This document shows, one piece after another, positions 1 through 8,614 of a stretch of 55,690 bases of DNA (positions are counted from its first letter, which is position 1; each line of letters begins with the position of its first letter). A program made the position numbers and the translations under genes. The notes under the pieces are model-generated. The model had not been told where the DNA came from. It saw only the letters and a program-made list of their open reading frames with translations, and ran no database searches. The stretch is from assembly GCA_964576475.1 (NCBI GenBank), contig CAZNVG010000005.1:1-55690 (forward strand). The letters are read 5' to 3'. This DNA comes from an uncultured Candidatus Saccharibacteria bacterium. Its GTDB lineage: Bacteria; Patescibacteriota; Saccharimonadia; Saccharimonadales; CAZNVG01.

Positions 1-834
1 TTCATCACCAGGTAGTGCAACGTTCATTCCATAGAGTCCTGCGAGCATTGTCGGGATTGTGAGTGCAAGCGTAATCACTGTCAGTAATCGAATAGTTTCG
101 TTAAGACGTGTATCCATGACGGCACGGTATGAATCCCGCACATTGGTGATTGTTCGCAGTAAGCTCTTGCTACGCGTAATAACCTGCTGAAACTCAATAA
201 CGAGGTCCTCAACCAAATCTCGGTCGTCCTCGAAAAGCTTAATGAGATGACCGCTGAGAAGTCGCTCGATTATGTCGTTAGTAGGAAACAGTGCATCGAG
301 ATAATCGTTAAGTTTGCGTTCGTATTCGACGAAGATGGATATATCGCCCGGGCGCAAACGTGTAATATCGCTGGTTGCAGCTCTCATTTGACGGTTGATA
401 GTAGCAACTTTTGATTGGTATTCGAACACGATCGATTCCAGCATCTGCAGCATGGTTCTGCTCTGCATAGTTGTTGCAATTTCTGTTTTATCAATAAATG
501 GCTGCCATAAACGGCTCAAGGATTCTTGGGAGAGTGTCACAATATACTTGGGCTTTATGATGAATAGGATTGGTGTAGTGAAATCGTTGAAGTCGTCATC
601 TGTGTCTGGCAATCGAGACATGAAATATAATGTATCGCCAACTGTTTCGACTCGTGGAACTTCATGAGGATCGAGTGCGTCAGTAACGATGTCGGGGTCT
701 AGCGAAAACTGCGTAATAATTGATGCGACCTCATCGGGAGTTGGGCGTTCGACTCGAACCCAACTTCCTTCCTGAAGGTCGGCAATCTTAGTGGCTTTGG
801 GCGACTTGCCCGAACTGTGATAATACTGAATCAT
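1..834 (-). CDS. corA: CorA-family Mg2+/Co2+ transporter (C-terminus runs off the window)
   Basis: Hand translation of the minus strand from ATG at 834 is open to position 1: MIQYYHSSGK...DALDPHEVPRVE...RLNETIRLLTVITLALTIPTMLAGLYGMNVALPGDE. Contains the CorA GMN signature after TM1. Missing from the ORF track because it is truncated. Confidence 0.88.
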   Translation of the reverse strand, partial: MIQYYHSSGKSPKATKIADLQEGSWVRVERPTPDEVASIITQFSLDPDIVTDALDPHEVPRVETVGDTLYFMSRLPDTDDDFNDFTTPILFIIKPKYIVTLSQESLSRLWQPFIDKTEIATTMQSRTMLQMLESIVFEYQSKVATINRQMRAATSDITRLRPGDISIFVEYERKLNDYLDALFPTNDIIERLLSGHLIKLFEDDRDLVEDLVIEFQQVITRSKSLLRTITNVRDSYRAVMDTRLNETIRLLTVITLALTIPTMLAGLYGMNVALPGDE

Positions 835-877
835 TAATCTAAGTCTAACGCGCTCAGCTCAATGATTGAAATTAATA

Positions 878-935
878 TGGGATTGCGCGCCTGACAGTTA
901 GTACCAGAGGCACCAAAGGTCAGGCGGCAATCCCA
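878..935. terminator. Long imperfect inverted repeat downstream of the kinase/vWA/PK-like operon
   Basis: Arms TGGGATTGC(G)CGCCTGAC (878-895) and GTCAGGCGGCAATCCCA (919-935), one bulged base, 23-nt loop. Lies between the operon stop (954) and the corA start. Confidence 0.55.
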
Positions 936-953
936 CTTTTGTTCTCGTCATTC

Positions 954-1955
954 CTAGTGACGAGAGGTCGTTTTTCGTGAACCGAGCAGTCGCTCGCGCA
1001 ACGACAGCTGTACTGTCGAATTGCTAGCTACTGGCGTGTAGTCGTCGGCTACCGCCGCGAAGACGTTGACCGCGAGAGCGAGTTTGTCTTCGAGAAGGCA
1101 AAGATCATCGCAGAGCATGTATCGCTTGTATCCGATCTCTCGGAGCCAAGCAAGCTCGCTCAGATCTGCACACGACGGGCCTGGTTCGTTGACAGTGGAC
1201 AGCAGGATCCGTGAGCCGGCGACGGCGTGAGGATCTTTGCTGATGATGAGCTGTAGTGCCCGAAGAATTCGATGCTCCGGCTTCAGCTCAACAAAAAGAT
1301 CGCCGCGTGCGGCAACAAGCGTGAGATTGTCACGCTTAGAGAATTCCTGCTCGACGAAGCCGAGACCACGCTCGTTCTCGATCTTCAACCAAACCTCAGC
1401 GTTGTCGCCGACAAGCTCCAAGAACTCATCGACATCGCGCATTGATTCGGTATAAGACAAGCACCAGCGAGAAATCCCGGCTGCTTTCGCCATCTCGATT
1501 CGCTTCTTCTCCCAGTCGTTGAACTGTTCGCCTTGGAGGACGAACGAGCTGTCCACGACATGAAGTGATTCTCCTGATCGGACCAGATGTTGAGGTCCGC
1601 CCAAGAAAACCAAGCGAGTGCCGTCCACCACACGGTCAAGCAGCGCACCATCATTGCCGGCCTTGAAAAGCACCAGCGAGTCGGGTTGCGCTGCGATTGG
1701 GTGGTTGATGATGATCTCGAGATGATCACCGCAGTCGATTGCTTCCAGTACACGAAGCTGGCGACCCTTGACGTCGAAAAACGTCTCAGGTGGAGCCGGC
1801 CCCGTGGACAGAAGATCGAACTCCGTCTGCAGTTCTGCTTCGCTCAGCATGGGCGTGTTCAGTCGAACGCCTTGGATACGAGGATCCTTAGCAAAGCGAC
1901 CAAAATAACTCATGCTTGGAAGCAATGTGCAGTACAGCTGTAGATCTGGGTTCAT
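954..1955 (-). CDS. Pyruvate-kinase-like TIM-barrel protein (A and B domains only, no C-terminal allosteric domain)
   Basis: PK motifs recognisable: RLN (RLNTPM vs RLNFSHG), DVKGRQLR (DxKGPxIR), LKIEN (KIE), AARGDLFVE (ARGDLGVE), SRILLS (TQMLES). 333 aa is far shorter than a canonical Pyk. Confidence 0.75.
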   Translation of the reverse strand: MNPDLQLYCTLLPSMSYFGRFAKDPRIQGVRLNTPMLSEAELQTEFDLLSTGPAPPETFFDVKGRQLRVLEAIDCGDHLEIIINHPIAAQPDSLVLFKAGNDGALLDRVVDGTRLVFLGGPQHLVRSGESLHVVDSSFVLQGEQFNDWEKKRIEMAKAAGISRWCLSYTESMRDVDEFLELVGDNAEVWLKIENERGLGFVEQEFSKRDNLTLVAARGDLFVELKPEHRILRALQLIISKDPHAVAGSRILLSTVNEPGPSCADLSELAWLREIGYKRYMLCDDLCLLEDKLALAVNVFAAVADDYTPVASNSTVQLSLRERLLGSRKTTSRH

Positions 1956-1964
1956 GGTCCGTCC

Positions 1965-2957
1965 CTACGCCAGGGGTGTCGAGGCGTCGCCGTCTCCCAG
2001 ATCCTTCAGCATCACCGAATTGCCGCTGCGAAGTGCCTTGCGCGAACCGGCCGTCACCGCGTGGATCGTCTCGAGAGACTTGTACACGGTCTTGACCTGT
2101 CCTGGCTTCTGTCGACCCTCGATCTCCTCTCGGAAGTCGTCGATTCGATCGACTTCTGCCGCGAGGATGCCGAAGATCACATCGACGACGCGGTTGGGGT
2201 CGGGGAGCATGGCGATGTGGCTCTCGCCAACCAGCGGCACCCACTTGTCGTGAGCTCGCTTGGTCTCACCATTCCACGAGTTCCCTGAGCCGGCATCGCT
2301 GCTGCCATATGGCTTCTGGATGAAGTAGACGGATGCGGTTCGCTGCAACTCGGCGAAGACCTGCTTGGTCGTGAGCGAGCGGTCGAGCTTGACGCATGCG
2401 TACTTGGCAGCGTGCTCGACACTGACTGAGTCGAAGCACGGCTCGTCACCGATGAAGATGACGATGGGCTCTGCCATGGCACTGACGCTCAGGTTGTGAG
2501 CGAAGTACAGCGCTGCGAGTTCGTACGTCTCTCCACCGTTACCGCCACCCTTGTTCTCGATGGTCAGCTGCTTGAGTCGGACCTCAAGGTCCTTGCCGGT
2601 GGCGAAGGGTCGAACCTGCAGTGCGTAGGTCTCGTTCTTGTGCGCATCGCCGATCGCCGCGAAGCAGATCTCAGCGTCGTCGCCCAGGTAGTCCCGCACC
2701 TCATGGTCGAGATACGGCAACTTGGAGAACATCGTCGCCGGCCAGTCACCCATCGAGGATGTCTCGTCGATGACGATGATCAGTGGACGCTGCGCCTTGG
2801 ATGACACCTTCTTCTCTCGCTTGGAGTCGAGGGAGGCACCGCTGTCGACCGCTTCTTGGTAGCTACTGCTGACGTGTTGATCGTAACGCGCTCGTGCGCG
2901 TTGGAAGTCATGCCCCTGCCATTGTGGGGCTGGGACATAGTCGTGTGATTCACTCAC
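1965..2957 (-). CDS. von Willebrand factor A (vWA) domain protein
   Basis: MIDAS motif IIVIDETSSMG (DxTxS), GGGNGGE loop, VIFIGDEP. GTG start with AAGGAG SD. Confidence 0.85.
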   Translation of the reverse strand: MSESHDYVPAPQWQGHDFQRARARYDQHVSSSYQEAVDSGASLDSKREKKVSSKAQRPLIIVIDETSSMGDWPATMFSKLPYLDHEVRDYLGDDAEICFAAIGDAHKNETYALQVRPFATGKDLEVRLKQLTIENKGGGNGGETYELAALYFAHNLSVSAMAEPIVIFIGDEPCFDSVSVEHAAKYACVKLDRSLTTKQVFAELQRTASVYFIQKPYGSSDAGSGNSWNGETKRAHDKWVPLVGESHIAMLPDPNRVVDVIFGILAAEVDRIDDFREEIEGRQKPGQVKTVYKSLETIHAVTAGSRKALRSGNSVMLKDLGDGDASTPLA

Positions 2958-2981
2958 GTGATTCTCCTTGGTTGGTTCGGA

Positions 2982-4004
2982 CTAAGACTTGATCTTCTTG
3001 TGACGGATTGGCTTCATGCCAGAGCGACGACGACCAAACGATGCCTGGCGGGCAGCGATCAGTGTGTCGTCGAGAGTTTCGGTCGACCAATTCGGTCGGT
3101 CGAGAGGGTTGGTCTTCAGCAACCTTCGAAGTAGATCGCACAATGGGTCTGGAAGATCGCTTGGGACTCGACGACGAGCAACTGCTTCCAGGTCGTTGCT
3201 AAACGCAAACAGCATGGTTGCTGCCAGCGAGTAGAAGTCGGATTCTGGAATCAGCGGCAAGCCTTTCTTCGATTCCGGGGAGCCGAAGTGTGGTGTGTAG
3301 CCGAGGCTTGCTGCTGTGTCGTCAGGGCGAACCGCTGCCAGGCCGAAGTCAACCAACACTACCTCGTGAGAGCTTGGCTGGACAATGATGTTCTTCGGCT
3401 TGAGGTCGCCGTGGATGATGCCGTTGTAGTGAAGATATTTGAGTGCATTGAGAATGCGCTCGGCAATCCACGCAACATCTTCCGCTTCGATCGGGCCCTT
3501 TTGCTCGACGAGATCGTGTAGGGTTGGCCCCTCCACGAAACCCATGACCAGCGCCACACTGCCGTCATCCAATCGGACGTAGTCACGAATGGCTGGAATG
3601 GCATGGTGGCGGAGGTCCCACATGGCTTGTGCCTCGTGGCTCATCACTTCTTCGTATTCCGGGGAGATCTGCTTGGCGTGTTTGATGCACACAAAACTAC
3701 CCGGCAACTCGATGTGCTCTGCCTTGTAGGTGACACCGATTGCCCCCTCGGCGATCTTGTTCACGATCCGATACTTGCCTCCAATCAATCCGCCGGGCGG
3801 ATGGATGAGAGTGCTGTCGTACTCGGATCGCTTGTCTGGATCGGTCAGGATGCTGTGCGCGTCGTTGACTCGAGCGGCCATGGCTGCGTGCTTGGAACTG
3901 TGATCCGGATGGATCTTCTTCATGCGTGCACGATACGCCGCTTCGATCACCTCGGGGCTTGCTGTTGGCAGAACCTCGAGGACCTGATAGTGCGTGAGGC
4001 CCAT
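2982..4004 (-). CDS. DnaJ (J-domain)-Ser/Thr protein kinase fusion
   Basis: Start moved to ATG 4004 (AAGGAG SD upstream). J-domain THYQVLEV...HPD...LTDPDKRSEYD is followed by Hanks kinase motifs IAEGAIGVTYKA, CIK, HGDLKPKN, DFGLA, SPE, DFYSL. Confidence 0.9.
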   Translation of the reverse strand: MGLTHYQVLEVLPTASPEVIEAAYRARMKKIHPDHSSKHAAMAARVNDAHSILTDPDKRSEYDSTLIHPPGGLIGGKYRIVNKIAEGAIGVTYKAEHIELPGSFVCIKHAKQISPEYEEVMSHEAQAMWDLRHHAIPAIRDYVRLDDGSVALVMGFVEGPTLHDLVEQKGPIEAEDVAWIAERILNALKYLHYNGIIHGDLKPKNIIVQPSSHEVVLVDFGLAAVRPDDTAASLGYTPHFGSPESKKGLPLIPESDFYSLAATMLFAFSNDLEAVARRRVPSDLPDPLCDLLRRLLKTNPLDRPNWSTETLDDTLIAARQASFGRRRSGMKPIRHKKIKS

Positions 4005-4396
4005 TCGGGATACTCCTTGTCTGTTGTCGGTTTTGAAAAACGATGTAAACGAACTACCTACGATGTTAGTCTCGACGCTGTTTTGCGCACGCAGTTCTAT
4101 CGCCGTAAATATACTTAAATTGTACGCTCGACACTTTGTATTGCCATGAGCATTACAAGCTGTATTTAGAATTTTAAGCAAACTTTCATGTTGGCTGAGT
4201 AATATCTCTAGTATCACCTTGTAAGCGTAGCCGGTGCGCAGAGGGCAAGGTGAGCAACAGTTTCGTCACAATACGGCGTATCTTGGCTGAGCAGATATGT
4301 AGAGTAAAAGTGTCAGACGGCATGAAAGACATGTACATACAGCAAAGAAAACCCCGTAGATAATGACGAGCAGTAATACACGTAAACGGAGGATAA

Positions 4397-4882
4397 ATGA
4401 GAAAGAAACTAATCGTACTCAGCGCCATTGCTGCAGTCACTGCAACGACACTTGGTGGTGTGGGTATTGTTTCTGCGCATTCGCAGCTCAATGGATCTTC
4501 TGATCTTGTAGATAAGATCGCTACAACGTTTAAGCTAGACAGGAATGAAGTGCAAAAAGTGTTTGATGAAGATCGTCAAGCACATCAAGCAGAGCGTGAA
4601 CAGGCCATGAAAGATCGTCTTTCTCAGGCTGTTAGCGACGGAACGCTTACTCAGGAACAAGCCGATAAGATAACAGCTAAACAAACTGAGATGAAAGCTT
4701 TTCGTGACACGCTAAAGGACAAGACAGATGATGAACGAAAAGCTGCCATGGACAGCAAGCGTGAGGAGCTAAAACAGTGGGCTAAAGACAACGGGATTAG
4801 CGACGAAGCTGCTCGATTCTTGGGTCCTGCCGGCGGACATGGACCGCGTGGTGAAGGTCATATGATGAAAGGGGGTATGTAG
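4397..4882 (+). CDS. Secreted/membrane-anchored helical hypothetical protein
   Basis: N-terminal signal-like segment, charged helical body (LVDKIATTFKLDRNEVQKVF; GTLTQEQADKI), G/H/M-rich tail, GGAGG SD. Confidence 0.75.
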   Translation: MRKKLIVLSAIAAVTATTLGGVGIVSAHSQLNGSSDLVDKIATTFKLDRNEVQKVFDEDRQAHQAEREQAMKDRLSQAVSDGTLTQEQADKITAKQTEMKAFRDTLKDKTDDERKAAMDSKREELKQWAKDNGISDEAARFLGPAGGHGPRGEGHMMKGGM

Positions 4883-4923
4883 AAATAGATAACGTTATAG
4901 CCTGATAACAAGCCAGCCAAAAA

Positions 4924-4965
4924 AAGAAGTCGCTCATGCTGAACCGCATACGAGCGACTTCTTTG
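4924..4965. terminator. Probable bidirectional intrinsic terminator
   Basis: 13-bp perfect arms AAAGAAGTCGCTC / GAGCGACTTCTTT, with an A-tract on the left and a T-rich end on the right, downstream of 4882. Confidence 0.7.
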
Positions 4966-4976
4966 ATATAAAAAAG

Positions 4977-5005
4977 TTGACAGGATTACAACTCTGTATG
5001 ATAAT
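4977..5005 (+). promoter_or_regulatory. sigma70-type promoter
   Basis: TTGACA (4977-4982), 17 nt, GATAAT (5000-5005). A second TATAAT lies at 5108-5113. Confidence 0.55.
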
Positions 5006-5274
5006 CCATTTACATCAGGAGACGAGCGTGCGGTCTCACCTCTCCACTGATCCGATAAAGGATTTCTACGCACGCACTTAATTGAGCATACTGAAATCTT
5101 GTATTTTTATAATCTGTTCGTCCTTCTAATCTTTGGCCGCACACGACGAGTAACGAGGTAGCGGAGTGATCATGCCGGTCTGGATGATTGTTCCGCTACT
5201 CTCGGTACCGAGTGGAGCCAGCCGCGCGACTGCCTCGCGTTTGAAAGTCTATCCAATCTGGGGATGGAGTGCTC

Positions 5275-5865
5275 ATGAAGATTCAGAAGAAGATTGTGGC
5301 GATTGCGATGTTCGCAGTCGTGGCAATGGTGGTGCCGACAGGTGCTGCTGGAGCAAGCGGTGCTGCGGCACCCAATCGGCTCATCGTGGAGCGCGCATGG
5401 TCGCACACGAAGTCGAACACTTCCAGTCAGCCGACGACATCGCGTTCGTCGTACCGATTCGCGCCGGCGGCGTGGGAGCTTGCCGAAGCGCGTGCGTCGC
5501 GTATCATCGCGGTGACTCCGATGGGTGTGGCAACCTGTGGGCGCATCACGTGCACGTTCACGTGGGATCGTGACGACTGGACGCCTCGGCTCAACCAGTG
5601 GTACGGCGGTGACTACACTGGAACGAAGGCCATCGCCGTCGGTGTGGTGGTTGGGCTCGCATGCTTGCCCTTCACCGGTCCGTATGCAGTTGTGTGTGGC
5701 GGTGTCGGTGCCATCAGTTTCTCCTACGTTCAGGAGACGCTTGCCAAGGCTGTTCGCGAACGCTCGTGCATGGCTGTGAAGTTCATCAACTGGGGTGGTG
5801 TCTGGCTGCCGTACAAGCTGGATGTTGTCCCGGTGTCGTCCTTCGATTGCTGGAGGAACTCCTGA
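5275..5865 (+). CDS. GC-rich secreted Cys-containing protein (possible bacteriocin/toxin-like)
   Basis: Sec signal MKIQKKIVAIAMFAVVAMVVPTGAAGA, CGRITCTFTWDR, Gly-rich hydrophobic segment AVGVVVGLACLPFTGPYAVVCGGVGAI, C-terminal SCMAVKF. GC3-rich codons. Confidence 0.75.
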   Translation: MKIQKKIVAIAMFAVVAMVVPTGAAGASGAAAPNRLIVERAWSHTKSNTSSQPTTSRSSYRFAPAAWELAEARASRIIAVTPMGVATCGRITCTFTWDRDDWTPRLNQWYGGDYTGTKAIAVGVVVGLACLPFTGPYAVVCGGVGAISFSYVQETLAKAVRERSCMAVKFINWGGVWLPYKLDVVPVSSFDCWRNS

Positions 5866-6035
5866 TGAGCAAGCAGATGCGACTTCTCGTCGGCATTGTG
5901 TTGGTGTTGTCCGGCCTCGTCGGCAGCGCTCTCAACGATGCACTCGTCAGCGGCAACTTCATGCTCTTCATCGTGTGTGGATGTGTCGCGCTGGGAGGTA
6001 TCGGCTTGATCGGGGTTTCGCTCCGAACTCGCTGA
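5865..6035 (+). CDS. 56-aa two-TM membrane protein, translationally coupled to the upstream gene
   Basis: TGATG stop/start overlap at 5863-5867, GGAGG SD, MSKQMRLLVGIVLVLSGLVGSALNDALVSGNFMLFIVCGCVALGGIGLIGVSLRTR. Confidence 0.75.
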   Translation: MSKQMRLLVGIVLVLSGLVGSALNDALVSGNFMLFIVCGCVALGGIGLIGVSLRTR

Positions 6036-6053
6036 TGTTCTTCAGCTAAAAAT

Positions 6054-6107
6054 GTTGTCTGGCCAGTGGCTGTGCTCGCTTTTGCGAGAACCCACTGGCC
6101 AGACAAC
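6054..6107. terminator. 16-bp perfect inverted repeat closing the GC-rich two-gene cassette
   Basis: GTTGTCTGGCCAGTGG (6054-6069) / CCACTGGCCAGACAAC (6092-6107), with inner CTCGC-TTTT-GCGAG. Confidence 0.6.
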
Positions 6108-6198
6108 GAGATTATTAAAATTAGTTTTGTTGCACTTTTATAAACAACGCATAGCATACTTAGCATCAGATTTGTTATCGTAAGGACAGAGGAGTTGT

Positions 6199-7074
6199 AT
6201 GATGATGACACCAAAGCAAATGTCCGATCGTATAGAGAGCGAGCTGTTAGCTTGTGGTCTCCCAAAGCGGGAGTTGCAAAAAGCAGAGAGTAAATACCTT
6301 ACACAAATTATTCACGAAGATGAGCACATTATTGGAGCAGTAGGTGGTATGTACGACGATTCCCTACACGCAATGTTAGTAGCCACCGATAAGCGAATCT
6401 TCTTTTTGGACTGTAAGCCAATGTACACAGTTAGCGATGAATTGACCTATGAAGTGGTTAGTGGGGTGAAGCACTCACATCATGGACCAGTAACTAGAGT
6501 GACCTTGCACTCAAGAGTCAGCGATTATTCGTTGGTGCTGACAAATAAGAACGCTGCAGATAATTTCGTACGAGCAGTTGAGACGCGTCGACTCGAGACG
6601 AACGTTTTAAACCAAGATGATAAAGAAAAACCAAAGTCAGAAATGAACCCAAAGTTAGTACTCGATGATGCGGTGGTTGCGTTTTTGCAGTCACGCGAAC
6701 TCGGAGTTTTATCGACAGTCGATAGGACAGGAGTAGTTGCTGGAGCGGCAGTGTATTATGTGCTTGCATCGGATGGTTGTGTGTATCTAATGTCACGTTC
6801 CAATACCCTTAAACTTCACAATGCGGTCGAAACGCATATGGTAGCACTGACGGTTTATGATGAGAAGATTTTGCAGACTGTTCAGCTTCAAGGACATGCA
6901 GAGATTGAGATTGATGATAAGAAAAGAGAGATGATCTTCGAGCGACTTATGCGACCAAGACCGGTTGAGGGTACAGTGTCGCTGCCGCCAATTACGAAAC
7001 AACATAGCGGCACGCCGATGATACTTCGCATTGATCCCTTTGCGGCAAAGTTTACAAACTTCCTAGAAAAATAA
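6199..7074 (+). CDS. Bacterial PH-domain / pyridoxamine-5'-phosphate-oxidase-like (FMN split barrel) fusion protein
   Basis: N-half EDEHII...MLVATDKRIFFLD is bPH-like. C-half FLQSRELGVLSTVDRTG...KLHN...VALTV...QTVQLQGHAEI is PNPOx-like. Confidence 0.7.
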   Translation: MMMTPKQMSDRIESELLACGLPKRELQKAESKYLTQIIHEDEHIIGAVGGMYDDSLHAMLVATDKRIFFLDCKPMYTVSDELTYEVVSGVKHSHHGPVTRVTLHSRVSDYSLVLTNKNAADNFVRAVETRRLETNVLNQDDKEKPKSEMNPKLVLDDAVVAFLQSRELGVLSTVDRTGVVAGAAVYYVLASDGCVYLMSRSNTLKLHNAVETHMVALTVYDEKILQTVQLQGHAEIEIDDKKREMIFERLMRPRPVEGTVSLPPITKQHSGTPMILRIDPFAAKFTNFLEK

Positions 7075-7129
7075 TCAGTGCAGATTGCCGTTAGTAGTAT
7101 GCTGAGGCAATAAGGCCTATTATAGATAC

Positions 7130-7735
7130 ATGACTCAACATGGTTTTAGTGAGGATTTGGAAAAATGGTTAAACGGTAAGCAGAAGAAAACACTGCATAG
7201 TTTAGGCGAAGTTTTTGCTGAAAAGAGCTTTGCTGTTTTGTTTCTCGTTCTTATGTTCTTCCCGTCGTTGCCTATTCCAACTGGTGGTGTAACTCATTTT
7301 GTCATGCTACCTATCGCAATGTTATTGTCGCTTGAACTTATAATAGGCCGTGACCATATTTGGCTTCCCGCCAAAGCAAAACAGCGTCGTTTGGGTGGTC
7401 TCACTGAGAAGCGAGTGTTGCCCTTTATGATGCGCAGGATTCGTTGGTTCGAAAAATTTGCACGACCTCGTTTCACTGGAATCATGACCAATCACCGGTT
7501 TGGGCAGGCTTATGGTCTGACGGTTTTGATATATGCACTTGCTGCTTTCTTTGCACCACCGTTTTCTGGACTCGATACACTACCCGCATTCGGAGTTGTC
7601 GTTATGTCCTTAGGAATAATTCTGGAAGACGGCTTGATTTACGTAATAGGTTTCATAAGTGGGGTCATTGGCATTACGCTAAGTGTTTTGTTTGGCGCTG
7701 CAATAGCTAAAGTCGTCGCCGGTATATTTACCTAA
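7130..7735 (+). CDS. exoD: ExoD-family exopolysaccharide synthesis membrane protein
   Basis: TLHSLGEVFAEKSFAVLFLVLMFFPSLPIP...QLIIGRDHIWLP...PFSGLDTLPAFGVVVMSLGIILEDG matches the ExoD pattern. Confidence 0.8.
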   Translation: MTQHGFSEDLEKWLNGKQKKTLHSLGEVFAEKSFAVLFLVLMFFPSLPIPTGGVTHFVMLPIAMLLSLELIIGRDHIWLPAKAKQRRLGGLTEKRVLPFMMRRIRWFEKFARPRFTGIMTNHRFGQAYGLTVLIYALAAFFAPPFSGLDTLPAFGVVVMSLGIILEDGLIYVIGFISGVIGITLSVLFGAAIAKVVAGIFT

Positions 7736-7792
7736 ATAAATACGGTCAAATGATCAGTTTATAAAGTTAAAGTCAGGTATGAGTGTGGGTCG

Positions 7793-7873
7793 GGGAGGGA
7801 TCGGGTGCGTGCTGGCCAAGGAGTCGAATCGTCGACGTATCCTTAGCGAGCCTTATAGCTCCCGATCCCTCCC
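7793..7873. terminator. 13-bp perfect inverted repeat downstream of the LAxTG gene
   Basis: GGGAGGGATCGGG (7793-7805) / CCCGATCCCTCCC (7861-7873). Confidence 0.5.
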
Positions 7874-7897
7874 AGCTGCGTTCCCCAGCCGCGATGT

Positions 7898-8614
7898 CTA
7901 CCGCTGACGCGGCGTGAAGTACTTGCGCACCAGCTTGTCGCGGTAGGCGAAGATCATCAGGCCGATGCCCAGGACGACGAGGAAGACGCCGAGGTAACCG
8001 AGGGGCTTGGATGCCTTGCCGGTGACGGCGAGCTGGTCACGACGCGGAGTCGTAGACGGCGCGACAGTCGTCGGCGTGACCTTGATGGTCGTCGTGGTGT
8101 CGAGCTTGATCGGCACCGTGGTGCTGGTCGTGCTCGTCGTCGACGGAGCTGCGGTGGTCGTCGTGGCCGGCACCGTGGTGCTGGTCGTGCTCGTCGTGCT
8201 GGTCGTCGACGGAATCGTCGTCGGCGGCGTTGACTCGCAGTTGATCGACTCGTAGCTGGCCTGACGCCCGAGCAGCTGACCCTGGTACTCGACCTCGAAC
8301 CCGATGACACCGCCGAGAATCGAAGTCTCGTTGGTGGTGATCGTGAAGGGGACGAGCTGACCAGGCATGATGACGCCGAGGCTCTTCTTCTCGAAGGGCG
8401 TGACTGCGTCGACCTCCATCTGCGCGTTCGGCTTGCCGATCTTCTCCGAGTTCTTGAAGTAGGACTCGATGATGACCTTGCCGTCGACGCACTTGCTCGT
8501 CGCCTGCTGGTAGGTGTCGCATGCACCCGCCACACCCGCGAGGATGAAGAGGGAGACTGCGGATGCCAACAGGATGAACGGCAATCGCTTGATGGTCTGC
8601 ATTGTGTTGCTCAT
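7898..8614 (-). CDS. GC-rich cell-surface protein with Thr-rich linker and LAxTG sortase-type sorting signal
   Basis: Signal peptide, small Cys-containing domain, TSTTSTT stalk, then LAVTG + hydrophobic TM (LGYLGVFLVVLGIGLMIFAY) + basic tail (RDKLVRKYFTPRQR). Confidence 0.85.
   Translation of the reverse strand: MSNTMQTIKRLPFILLASAVSLFILAGVAGACDTYQQATSKCVDGKVIIESYFKNSEKIGKPNAQMEVDAVTPFEKKSLGVIMPGQLVPFTITTNETSILGGVIGFEVEYQGQLLGRQASYESINCESTPPTTIPSTTSTTSTTSTTVPATTTTAAPSTTSTTSTTVPIKLDTTTTIKVTPTTVAPSTTPRRDQLAVTGKASKPLGYLGVFLVVLGIGLMIFAYRDKLVRKYFTPRQR

What the first reader, a model, noticed from the sequence alone, without database searches (positions are those of the whole stretch)
954..1955. 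Minimal pyruvate-kinase-fold enzyme with retained metal/PEP residues but a remodelled nucleotide site
Seen: the KIE (Lys/Glu) and RGD motifs that bind Mg2+/PEP are intact. RLNFSHG becomes RLNTPM (His lost), TQMLES becomes SRILLS, and the whole C-terminal allosteric/tetramer domain is absent (333 aa). Inference: it may be a PEP-dependent phosphotransferase for a non-ADP acceptor, or a PEP sensor, rather than a glycolytic enzyme.
Basis: partly seen in the sequence, partly recalled or inferred. Interest (0 to 1): 0.55.

Follow-up and report, generated by a model that had tools for sequence, protein, structure and literature searches.

The report
Mini pyruvate kinase with vWA-kinase partners
The gene encodes a stripped-down relative of the glycolytic enzyme pyruvate kinase that is not the cell's normal pyruvate kinase but the enzyme part of a mobile, apparently undescribed three-gene unit (protein kinase, metal-site adaptor, mini pyruvate kinase) shared by tiny symbiotic bacteria, tiny archaea and giant phages, with sister versions sitting inside NAD-making operons.

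Summary
Observation confirmed. Window 954-1955 (minus strand) encodes a 333-aa protein with a pyruvate kinase (PK) A barrel plus a small B cap and no C domain. All cited motifs are present.

The model has pLDDT 91. It matches only PKs (VIA Z 26; hhalign probability 98%), not HpcH aldolases. The phosphoryl-transfer set is invariant across the family. The K+ site, the ribose-contacting His and the B-domain face are replaced by other invariant residues.

The Saccharibacteria genome has a separate canonical pyk.

New here: the gene is the last of a GC-rich three-gene cassette, J-domain Ser/Thr kinase, then vWA/MIDAS protein, then mini-PK.
- The vWA gene lies directly upstream in 68/71 cellular and 21/21 phage-contig loci.
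- The kinase is present in 55/63 and 21/21.
- Only 2 of 61 related genomes carry the family.

Paralogous subtypes sit in NAD operons: nadM-vWA-miniPK-nadE in all 10 positive Anaerolineales-type genomes, and nadE-nudix-nadM-kinase-vWA-miniPK in archaea. Phage copies often lie near ADP-ribosylglycohydrolase genes.

Missing-enzyme tests for NadA, NadC, PncB, NadK and Prs were all negative.

Best reading: a trans-regulated PEP-dependent phosphotransferase, possibly tied to NAD/ADP-ribose upkeep. The acceptor is unknown. No paper describing it was found. Earlier notes of this scan report the same trio on other DNA.

The parts
954..1955 (-). Mini pyruvate kinase (mini-PK, 333 aa): PK A-domain TIM barrel plus a shortened B cap (about residues 64-135), no C domain. 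Third gene of the cassette.
   Evidence: ORF and translation. PK-only sequence matches in PDB. Model pLDDT 91.2. Foldseek and VIA top matches are all PK, Z 26.4. hhalign to PykF, probability 98.1%. Invariant residues.
1965..2957 (-). vWA/MIDAS adaptor protein (330 aa). It has a D64-x-T-x-S68 MIDAS motif, a conserved N-terminal peptide (MSESxDY...W) and a helical C-terminal part. Second gene; 9-nt gap to the mini-PK start.
   Evidence: No Pfam hit for the window's copy. Alignment A2 shows the DxTGSM motif. Model pLDDT 88.5. Foldseek: NorD vWA and integrin I domains, E about 2e-6. phrog_2971, E 1e-20. Directly upstream of the mini-PK in 68/71 cellular and 21/21 viral loci.
2982..4001 (-). J-domain (DnaJ, HPD motif present) fused to a Ser/Thr protein kinase; first gene. 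The longest ORF starts at GTG 4217 (411 aa). Comparison with homologues of about 340 aa suggests the real start is the ATG near 4001 (Met73 of that ORF).
   Evidence: Pfam Pkinase E 8e-32 and DnaJ E 1e-14. Alignment A3: K179, E195, H-G-D271, N276 and D290-x-G conserved, so it looks active. Present in 55/63 cellular and 21/21 viral loci.
4119..4158 (-). Candidate promoter (ATGGCA-17-TACAAT, 4147-4119). Its -35 region is overlapped by a 23-bp palindrome (TTGTAATGCTCATGGCAATACAA, 4136-4158) that is unique in the genome: a possible operator of the cassette.
   Evidence: Promoter-like scan (no more sites than in shuffles, so weak). Palindrome search and genome-wide scan: one site with 1 mismatch, and the five others with 2 mismatches look like chance.

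Best explanation
The gene encodes the catalytic subunit of a three-protein module.

Shown:
- It is a pyruvate-kinase-family enzyme reduced to the A barrel and a small B cap.
- It keeps the full PK machinery for binding Mg2+ and PEP/pyruvate and for moving a phosphoryl group: the two Arg, the catalytic Lys, the Glu and Asp metal ligands, and Ser in place of the proton-relay Thr.
- It has lost the allosteric/tetramerisation C domain.
- It has a family-specific, invariant set of residues where PK binds K+ and the nucleotide.
- It is encoded with, and almost never without, a vWA/MIDAS protein, and usually a Ser/Thr kinase (here with a J domain).
- The cassette is a GC-rich, patchily distributed, mobile unit shared by CPR bacteria, DPANN archaea and large phages.
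- Its deeper-branching paralogues are built into NAD-synthesis/ADP-ribose operons.

Inferred:
- The enzyme transfers phosphate from PEP (or runs the reverse reaction) to an acceptor that is probably not free ADP. The acceptor is more likely a phosphate or hydroxyl group of a nucleotide-like metabolite of the NAD/ADP-ribose/adenylate pool.
- Its activity is gated in trans by the vWA protein. MIDAS-mediated binding would take over the regulatory role of the lost C domain.
- vWA binding is in turn switched by phosphorylation from the kinase, whose J domain could recruit Hsp70.

It is not the housekeeping glycolytic pyruvate kinase of this bacterium.
For: Fold and family:
- Foldseek's first 50 matches are all PKs, E about 1e-17.
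- VIA Z 26.4, about 300 aligned residues covering the A and B domains.
- hhalign to PykF/own pyk: probability 98.1%.
- The PDB profile search finds only PKs.

Catalytic set invariant in 55 sequences of three subtypes: R31, N33, D61, K63, R68, K191, E193, R217, D219, S248.

Family-specific invariants at the K+/nucleotide side: M36, R65, Q66, E129, R249, D283, C286.

Separate canonical pyk in the same genome and in two CPR genomes that carry the cassette.

Module:
- vWA directly upstream in 68/71 cellular and 21/21 viral loci; kinase in 55/63 and 21/21.
- 9- and 24-nt gaps in the window.
- vWA fold with MIDAS motif.
- Kinase catalytic residues kept.

Mobility:
- GC 0.56-0.59 against 0.44-0.46 in the flanks.
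- Only 2 of 61 related genomes carry it.
- Different flanks in the one relative that has it.
- Real phage contigs: major head protein, helicase, DNA polymerase. One 485-kb GenBank phage.

NAD link:
- nadM-vWA-miniPK-nadE in all 10 positive genomes of one order.
- nadE-nudix-nadM-kinase-vWA-miniPK in archaea, including the complete AR15 genome, which also has a window-type trio.
- NrtR next to one such locus.
- ADP-ribosylglycohydrolase within 8 kb in 7/18 viral loci.
- In a tree rooted with canonical PKs, the window-type clade (support 100) nests within the NAD-operon types.
Against: - No activity data. The acceptor is unknown, and ADP is not excluded. PK binds the nucleotide mostly through phosphates, and both phosphate-binding Arg are kept.
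- The window-type (J-kinase) trio itself is not next to NAD genes in any of the 80 cellular loci. Its NAD link therefore rests on paralogy, on rooting through a very long outgroup branch, and on phage ARH neighbours that amount to only about three independent lineages.
- All 'missing enzyme' tests failed. Genomes with the family still have NadA/NadC (7 of 10), NadK (149 of 151 in the sample, no positive genome among the two lacking it) and Prs (5 of 5). PncB-type PRTases are rare in that order whether or not the family is present.
- No shared NrtR-type operator was found between this cassette and the genome's NAD cluster.
- The vWA-enzyme contact and the kinase target are inferred from gene order only. 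No complex model could be run.
- The J-domain HPD motif is lost in several Saccharibacteria copies.
Confidence: 0.45

Rival explanations
1. It is a true pyruvate kinase (PEP + ADP -> pyruvate + ATP) that has swapped its allosteric C domain for regulation in trans. On this reading it is a dedicated, switchable ATP-regenerating unit that phages and small-genome cells use, for instance, to power ATP-costly NAD resynthesis.
For: - Every residue needed for PK chemistry is kept, including both phosphate-binding Arg.
- PK is known (own knowledge) to be loose about the nucleotide base.
- Three DPANN genomes with the cassette have no canonical PK.
- NadM and NadE both consume ATP, and in the NAD operons they flank the pair.
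Against: - This genome and two CPR genomes have a canonical pyk as well.
- AR15 carries two paralogous trios, which would be redundant.
- In the class of AR15, the mini type is found in only 2 of 71 genomes, while 48 have no PK hit at all. So it is not the usual substitute.
- The His, the K+ ligands and, by my motif reading, the B-domain Lys region are replaced by other invariant residues.
- A third subtype pairs with a PurA-like ligase, which suggests diversified substrates.
Confidence: 0.27
2. It is the effector of a phage-host conflict system, either defence or counter-defence. The kinase-vWA pair senses infection or host attack and switches on an enzyme that drains or restores PEP, ATP or an NAD-derived metabolite.
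For: - The architecture resembles TerY-P triads (vWA + kinase + PP2C), some of which act as stand-alone antiphage systems (PMC11090510).
- The kinase hits defence-kinase models mad6 and PD-T4-6.
- The cassette is mobile, GC-rich and patchy and frequent in large phages.
- ADP-ribosylglycohydrolase neighbours in phages fit counter-defence against ADP-ribosylation or NAD depletion.
- An integrase lies next to two NAD-type loci.
Against: - The vWA protein and the mini-PK match no PADLOC model. The kinase hits are generic kinase-domain matches.
- Sequence conservation is unusually high for a conflict system: about 50% identity across bacteria, archaea and phages.
- The NAD-operon subtypes look like metabolic operons with tight gene spacing.
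- No known defence genes recur beside it.
Confidence: 0.15
3. It acts on protein rather than on a metabolite. It would be either a PEP-dependent protein phosphotransferase or a phosphatase-like partner that takes the place of PP2C in a TerY-P-like switch, with the vWA protein or the kinase as substrate.
For: - The triad has the TerY-P layout with the PP2C slot filled by the mini-PK.
- The vWA protein and the kinase both end in a similar short conserved tail: G-[KR]-S-x-M-K in the vWA protein and FGRxxSxMKP in the kinase. The vWA protein also has a conserved Ser/Tyr/Asp-rich N-terminus.
- PEP-utilising barrels that phosphorylate proteins exist (PTS enzyme I; own knowledge).
Against: - PP2C genes do occur next to the full trio in 3 loci, so the mini-PK is not a simple replacement.
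- The Anaerolineales-type operons have no kinase at all.
- The closed PK-type cleft under a B cap suits small molecules (own knowledge).
Confidence: 0.08
4. It is a non-catalytic PEP/metabolite sensor (pseudoenzyme) that reports energy state to the vWA-kinase pair.
For: Loss of the C domain and obligatory pairing with signalling proteins.
Against: Complete invariance of the catalytic Lys, both metal ligands, both Arg and the proton-relay position over three subtypes and about 34% identity is what is expected of an active enzyme, not of a binding module.
Confidence: 0.05

Closest known systems
Canonical pyruvate kinase (EC 2.7.1.40; e.g. E. coli PykF 1PKY/4YNG, T. cruzi PYK 4KS0, PKM)
   Same: Same A-domain TIM barrel with the B cap inserted after strand 3 (Z 26.4, about 300 aligned residues). 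Same catalytic constellation (R, N, D-x-K, R, K-x-E, G-D), placed by profile alignment.
   Different: - About 17-20% identity.
- No C domain, hence no known allosteric or tetramer interface.
- B cap about 30 residues shorter.
- K+ ligands Ser and Thr lost; His37->Met, Pro70-Glu71->Arg-Gln, Thr278-Gln279->Ser-Arg, Ser312-Gly313->Cys-Asp.
- Below all curated PK thresholds.
- Always encoded with a vWA protein.
TerY-P triad (TerY-like vWA + PP2C phosphatase + Ser/Thr kinase; Anantharaman et al. 2012, as summarised in PMC11090510)
   Same: A three-gene unit built on a vWA/MIDAS protein and a Ser/Thr kinase. Mobile; hypothesised to be a phosphorylation-dependent switch.
   Different: - The third member is a PK-like enzyme, not PP2C.
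- The kinase carries an N-terminal J domain instead of a C-terminal zinc ribbon or OB fold.
- The vWA protein matches no TerY or PADLOC model.
Archaeal Arn network (vWA protein ArnB with kinases ArnC/ArnD; own knowledge, also named in earlier scan notes)
   Same: A vWA protein that is partnered with, and phosphorylated by, Hanks-type kinases.
   Different: Arn controls archaellum expression and has an FHA partner and no enzyme output. No sequence relationship was tested here.
NAD salvage / NrtR-type operons (pncA, pncB, nadM, nadE, Nudix; Rodionov et al. 2008, own knowledge) and phage NAD reconstitution pathways (bioRxiv 10.1101/2024.02.11.579819, listed, abstract only read)
   Same: Paralogous mini-PK/vWA pairs are embedded between nadM and nadE and next to Nudix and NrtR genes. 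Phage copies lie near ADP-ribosylglycohydrolase genes.
   Different: No PK-like or vWA protein is part of any described NAD pathway. The window's own cassette is not next to NAD genes. This genome's nadE-nrtR-ARH-pncA-pncB cluster is on another contig.

Membership tests
Pyruvate kinase (EC 2.7.1.40; Pfam PF00224 + PF02887; NCBIfam TIGR01064) | Match to the PK barrel model above the curated threshold | tested here: not met
   PF00224 gives 20.6 bits against a cut-off of 30, covering only residues 149-268. TIGR01064 gives 18.2 bits against 306. Many homologues do carry a precomputed PF00224 hit.
Pyruvate kinase (EC 2.7.1.40; Pfam PF00224 + PF02887; NCBIfam TIGR01064) | A-domain (beta/alpha)8 barrel with inserted B (cap) domain | tested here: met
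   Model pLDDT 91.2. Foldseek E about 1e-17 to PKs only. VIA Z 26.4, model 1-326 aligned to 4ks0_A 18-377. hhalign probability 98.1%.
Pyruvate kinase (EC 2.7.1.40; Pfam PF00224 + PF02887; NCBIfam TIGR01064) | C-terminal alpha/beta (allosteric, tetramer-forming) domain | tested here: not met
   The protein ends at residue 333. The last roughly 25 residues have low confidence. There is no PF02887 hit.
Pyruvate kinase (EC 2.7.1.40; Pfam PF00224 + PF02887; NCBIfam TIGR01064) | Catalytic Lys, Glu/Asp Mg2+ ligands, and the two phosphate-binding Arg | tested here: met
   K191, E193, D219, R31 and R68 align to PykF K220, E222, D246, R32 and R73. They are invariant in 55 sequences.
Pyruvate kinase (EC 2.7.1.40; Pfam PF00224 + PF02887; NCBIfam TIGR01064) | Monovalent-cation site (Asn, Ser, Asp, Thr) and nucleotide-side His | tested here: not met
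   Asn and Asp are kept (N33, D61). Ser36->Pro/Ala/Val, Thr67->Val/Ile/Leu and His37->Met are fixed family-wide. The residue roles are from my own knowledge of PK structures.
Pyruvate kinase (EC 2.7.1.40; Pfam PF00224 + PF02887; NCBIfam TIGR01064) | PEP + ADP -> pyruvate + ATP activity | not testable with these tools
   Needs an enzyme assay.
HpcH/HpaI aldolase / citrate lyase beta (Pfam PF03328) | Sequence match to PF03328 | tested here: not met
   No PF03328 hit at E <= 0.01. Only PK chains appear in the PDB sequence searches.
HpcH/HpaI aldolase / citrate lyase beta (Pfam PF03328) | Barrel without a PK-type B-domain insertion; best structural neighbours are aldolases | tested here: inconclusive
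   All 50 listed Foldseek and VIA rows are PKs, and the model has a beta-rich insertion at residues 64-135. Aldolases further down the list were not inspected.
TerY-P triad | vWA/MIDAS protein | tested here: met
   D64-x-T-x-S68 motif. vWA fold.
TerY-P triad | Ser/Thr protein kinase | tested here: met
   Pkinase E 8e-32. Catalytic residues kept.
TerY-P triad | PP2C phosphatase as third member | tested here: not met
   No PP2C in window 1-8600. PP2C lies next to the trio in only 3 of 80 loci.
Known anti-phage defence systems (PADLOC-DB 2.0) | Match of the non-kinase components to a defence-system model | tested here: not met
   No hit for the mini-PK or the vWA protein. The kinase hits generic kinase models.
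NAD-operon type of the mini-PK family (nadM/nadE-linked) | Adjacency to nadM, nadE, Nudix or NrtR genes | tested here: not met
   Window neighbours are CorA, an unknown protein, a PNPOx-like protein and ExoD. The genome's NAD genes are on contig C8. The protein falls in the separate J-kinase clade.

The most novel reading that the evidence does not exclude
The mini-PK/vWA pair catalyses a so far unknown, PEP-driven step in NAD / ADP-ribose / adenylate recycling, for example phosphorylation of a pyridine or ADP-ribose-derived intermediate. Large phages and ultra-small symbionts would carry a kinase-switched version of it to keep or restore NAD during infection or host dependence: a new arm of NAD metabolism and of phage counter-defence.
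Probability: 0.25. Interest if true: 0.85.

Novelty: new variant of a known kind. Interest (0 to 1): 0.66.

Why it matters
- PK is one of the best-studied enzymes. A compact, sharply separated offshoot would be a new example of how a central metabolic enzyme is re-tooled. The family has 147 clusters at 50% identity with E <= 1e-30. It keeps the chemistry but loses the allosteric domain and gains an obligatory vWA partner and a protein kinase.
- The family is shared by CPR bacteria, DPANN archaea and huge phages, groups whose metabolism is full of gaps. Its sister types sit inside NAD operons. The unknown acceptor may therefore mark a missing reaction or control point in NAD/ADP-ribose upkeep, which is a current topic in phage-host conflict.
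- The hypothesis is directly testable with three small soluble proteins.

Tried and rejected
1. HpcH/citrate-lyase reading: rejected. There are no sequence hits, and every listed structural neighbour is a PK.

2. Housekeeping PK: rejected for this genome, which has a canonical pyk on C72. As a general PK substitute in DPANN it is not supported: 2 of 71 genomes have the mini type, 22 have a canonical PK and 48 have none.

3. Non-orthologous replacement of an NAD enzyme. This was tested in one order of 151 genomes. The 10 genomes with the family include 7 with both NadC and NadA. No positive genome is among the two lacking NadK. PncB/NadV-type PRTases are near absent in that order regardless. 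My first result, 4 of 4 genomes lacking PncB and NadC, was only the background.

4. Alternative PRPP source: Prs is present in all 5 genomes tested.

5. Shared NrtR operator between the cassette and this genome's nadE-nrtR-pncA-pncB cluster: none found. The only palindrome upstream is unique.

6. Known defence system: no PADLOC match for two of the three proteins.

7. Literature: four full-text searches found no paper on a PK-like/vWA/kinase module. The eLife 2020 paper on vWA ternary systems has no mention of pyruvate kinase.

8. ARH next to the trio in cellular loci: none in 80.

Neighbourhoods came from the search for related loci, the genome search and my own ORF calling, so gene boundaries are approximate.

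Full report
**1. The observation**

Window 954-1955 holds one ORF of 333 codons on the minus strand.

Standard libraries see it only weakly. Pfam PK barrel gives 20.6 bits, under the cut-off of 30. NCBIfam pyruvate kinase models give 17-21 bits against cut-offs of 306-686. The relationship is nevertheless real:
- phmmer and a family profile against all PDB sequences find only pyruvate kinases (best E 2e-6 and 1e-8).
- An AlphaFold model built on 35 homologues has mean pLDDT 91.2.
- Foldseek's first 50 matches are all PKs, at E about 1e-17.
- VIA-align gives Z 26.4 with about 300 aligned residues. Model residues 1-326 align to residues 18-377 of T. cruzi PK. That span is the A barrel plus the B cap, and the chain stops where the C domain would begin.
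- hhalign of the family against E. coli PykF plus this genome's own pyk gives probability 98.1% and E 7e-14 over PykF 2-315.

**2. Which PK residues are kept**

From the profile alignment, and from conservation in 35 close and 55 broad family members:

Kept and invariant:
- R32=R31, N34=N33, D66=D61, K68=K63, R73=R68.
- K220=K191, E222=E193, G245-D246=G218-D219.
- E250=E223, kept in the two main subtypes.

Changed, but fixed within the family:
- S36->Ala/Pro/Val, H37->M36, T67->Val/Ile/Leu.
- P70-E71->R65-Q66, T278->S248, Q279->R249.
- S312-G313->(Cys/Gly)-D283, plus an invariant C286.

In the B cap, an invariant G128-E129-S130 sits where, by my motif reading, PK has its Lys-Gly-Val-Asn segment. 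hhalign does not align this stretch with confidence.

By my own knowledge of PK structures, the kept set is the Mg2+/PEP/phosphoryl-transfer machinery. The changed set covers two K+ ligands, the His that touches the nucleotide ribose, and the B-domain face over the acceptor.

This pattern fits an active phosphotransferase with altered acceptor or cation requirements. It does not fit a dead sensor domain.

**3. A separate canonical pyk**

The genome is 1.47 Mb in 135 contigs and 97% complete. Earlier scan notes call it Saccharibacteria, which I did not verify independently. It has a standard pyk on contig C72 (337 bits, 497-aa frame).

Two CPR genomes that carry the cassette also have a canonical PK. 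Three DPANN genomes with it do not. In a sample of 71 genomes of AR15's class, 22 have a canonical PK, 48 have no PK hit, and only 2 have the mini type. The mini type is therefore not the usual stand-in for PK.

**4. The gene is part of a three-gene cassette**

I fetched 80 cellular loci encoding relatives, called ORFs and clustered the neighbours. Only two neighbour families are conserved.

The first is a protein of about 325 aa directly upstream:
- It has no Pfam match in the window's copy.
- It carries a D-x-T-G-S-M MIDAS motif.
- Its model (pLDDT 88.5) matches vWA/integrin I domains and NorD.

The second, one gene further upstream, is a protein of about 340 aa made of a J domain and a Hanks-type Ser/Thr kinase:
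- The kinase keeps the ATP-binding Lys, the alpha-C Glu, H-G-D, Asn and D-x-G.
- The window's copy keeps the J-domain HPD motif. Several Saccharibacteria copies have lost it.

By tblastn, the vWA gene is directly upstream in 68 of 71 cellular loci with enough sequence, and the kinase in 55 of 63. In 21 IMG/VR contigs both are present in 21 of 21.

In the window the gaps are 24 and 9 nt. The kinase ORF most likely starts near 4001, not at the GTG at 4217. A promoter-like site at 4147-4119 and a unique 23-bp palindrome at 4136-4158 lie upstream.

**5. Mobility and range**

- The cassette (about 954-4001) has GC 0.56-0.59, against 0.44-0.46 around it.
- Only 2 of 61 genomes of the same order carry the family.
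- The one relative that has it also has a GC-rich copy, 65-70% identical at the DNA level, with different flanks.
- Hosts named in the records are Saccharibacteria, many other Patescibacteria, Woese-, Pace- and Nanoarchaeota, and some other phyla.
- The viral contigs are real phages: a major head protein directly upstream of one trio, plus a helicase, a DNA polymerase III alpha and an HNH nuclease.
- One 485-kb GenBank phage has a copy.
- An ESM Atlas cluster of 741 members lists Uroviricota as its commonest phylum.
- A profile search of 1.84 billion representatives finds 147 clusters at E <= 1e-30 and only 1137 at E <= 1e-3. The family is compact and well separated from the many canonical PKs.

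**6. Link to NAD and ADP-ribose**

More distant relatives (34-38% identity) sit in NAD operons.

In one Anaerolineales-type order:
- 10 of 151 genomes have the family.
- Where the contig allows, the order is nadM (archaeal-type NMN adenylyltransferase) - vWA - mini-PK - nadE, with no kinase.
- In one genome both the mini-PK and nadE are broken by insertions.

In archaea:
- The order is nadE - Nudix - nadM - kinase (no J domain) - vWA - (unknown gene) - mini-PK, once with NrtR nearby.
- The complete AR15 genome has this operon and, elsewhere, a window-type trio.

A third type pairs vWA and mini-PK with a PurA-like ligase.

In a quick maximum-likelihood tree rooted with canonical PKs, the window type forms a clade with support 100 that mixes phage, CPR and DPANN sequences. 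That clade nests among the NAD-operon types. The outgroup branch is very long, so the root is uncertain.

For the window type itself the link is indirect:
- No NAD gene is adjacent in any of the 80 cellular loci.
- In phage contigs an ADP-ribosylglycohydrolase (PF03747, E 5e-65) lies within 8 kb in 7 of 18 non-redundant loci. That amounts to about three independent lineages.
- This genome's own NAD cluster on contig C8 reads nadE - nrtR - ARH (opposite strand) - pncA - pncB.

**7. What it is not**

I tested whether the pair fills a missing step.
- In the 151-genome order, NadC and NadA are present in 7 of the 10 positive genomes, against about 30% overall.
- NadK is found in 149 of 151 genomes, and no positive genome is among the two without it.
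- PncB/NadV-type enzymes are nearly absent there regardless.
- Prs is present in all five genomes tested.

So the pair does not replace NadA, NadC, PncB, NadK or Prs. No PADLOC model matches the mini-PK or the vWA protein.

**8. Mechanism**

Shown:
- A PK-family catalytic core.
- The C domain is lost.
- The acceptor/K+ side is altered.
- The gene is obligately linked to a vWA/MIDAS protein and, in this clade, to a J-domain kinase.
- The unit is mobile.
- Paralogues are embedded in NAD operons.

Inferred:
- The enzyme moves phosphate from PEP to an acceptor other than free ADP, probably a nucleotide-like metabolite.
- The vWA protein binds it and takes over the regulatory role of the lost C domain.
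- The kinase switches that binding.

I give this composite 0.45. The rivals are:
- A plain but trans-regulated PK: 0.27.
- A conflict-system effector: 0.15.
- A protein-directed phosphotransferase: 0.08.
- A sensor: 0.05.

**9. Comparison and novelty**

The closest enzyme is canonical PK. It shares the fold and chemistry, but this protein fails the membership tests on the C domain, the K+ site and the curated thresholds. The closest system is the TerY-P triad (vWA + kinase + PP2C; PMC11090510), where the third member and the kinase fusion differ.

Four full-text searches found no description of the module.

Earlier notes of this scan (AI notes) describe the same kinase-vWA-mini-PK trio on other DNA, next to NAD genes and in huge phages. 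They also describe a kinase/PP2C/vWA/nicotinamidase module elsewhere in this genome. I reached the trio, the phage occurrence and the NAD link independently before reading them. They agree with my results but are not independent evidence.

I rate this a new variant of a known kind, with interest 0.66.

Noticed in passing
window 4136-4158 (with promoter-like site 4147-4119, minus strand): A 23-bp near-perfect palindrome, TTGTAATGCTCATGGCAATACAA, overlaps the -35 of the only promoter-like site upstream of the cassette. It is unique in the 1.47-Mb genome and unlike anything upstream of the nadE-nrtR-pncA-pncB cluster. It may be the operator of an unknown regulator.
   Followed up: partly
window 2982-4217, minus strand: The longest kinase ORF (GTG 4217, 411 aa) carries about 70 N-terminal residues that no homologue has. 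The likely true start is the ATG near 4001 (about 339 aa), which is also where the GC-rich block begins.
   Followed up: partly
G000 contig C8:12980-18690 (outside the window): This genome's NAD salvage genes form one cluster: nadE, nrtR, an ADP-ribosylglycohydrolase homologue on the opposite strand, pncA and pncB. The same ARH family is the commonest neighbour of the trio in phage contigs.
   Followed up: partly
L120 (G017:C1:2104000-2123000): In one Anaerolineales-type genome both the mini-PK and the adjacent nadE are split by inserted DNA of about 1.5-1.8 kb that carries ORFs. The two neighbours appear to be decaying together.
   Followed up: no
L003:2881-3831, L006:6836-7942 and 11 further loci (mostly DPANN): A protein with an AbrB/MazE-type N-terminal domain and a PhoU domain lies next to the trio in 13 of 80 loci, mostly divergently upstream. 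It is a candidate phosphate-responsive regulator of the cassette.
   Followed up: no
L063:5066-5929, L069:4926-5816, L049:4242-5120, L066:5035-5901 (also L071, L076): A conserved protein of about 290 aa with no Pfam, NCBIfam or PHROG match sits between the vWA and mini-PK genes, or just after the mini-PK, in several archaeal loci.
   Followed up: no
L034, L042, L043, L128 (e.g. L128:7782-11278): A third arrangement is vWA - mini-PK - PurA-like adenylosuccinate-synthetase homologue, sometimes next to a full trio. In these mini-PKs the G of the R-G-D motif is Asp and E223 is lost.
   Followed up: no
alignments A2 (vWA) and A3 (kinase), C-terminal ends; window 1965-2010 and 2982-3030: The vWA protein and the kinase both end in a similar short conserved tail: G-[KRN]-S-[VI]-M-[KL] in the vWA protein and F-G-R-x-x-S-x-M-K-P in the kinase. 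This may be a shared docking or phosphorylation motif.
   Followed up: no
G275:C5:3892-4827 and G251:C5:23370-24296 (DPANN genomes, not fetched): Some DPANN genomes encode near-canonical PKs (169-219 bits to PF00224 over the whole barrel) in frames of only 338-353 aa. These lack the C domain too but belong to the ordinary PK family: a second, independent kind of minimal PK.
   Followed up: no
window 1-834, minus strand: A CorA-type Mg2+ transporter gene with its own promoter-like site lies 120 nt downstream of the mini-PK. The adjacency is not conserved in other loci.
   Followed up: yes
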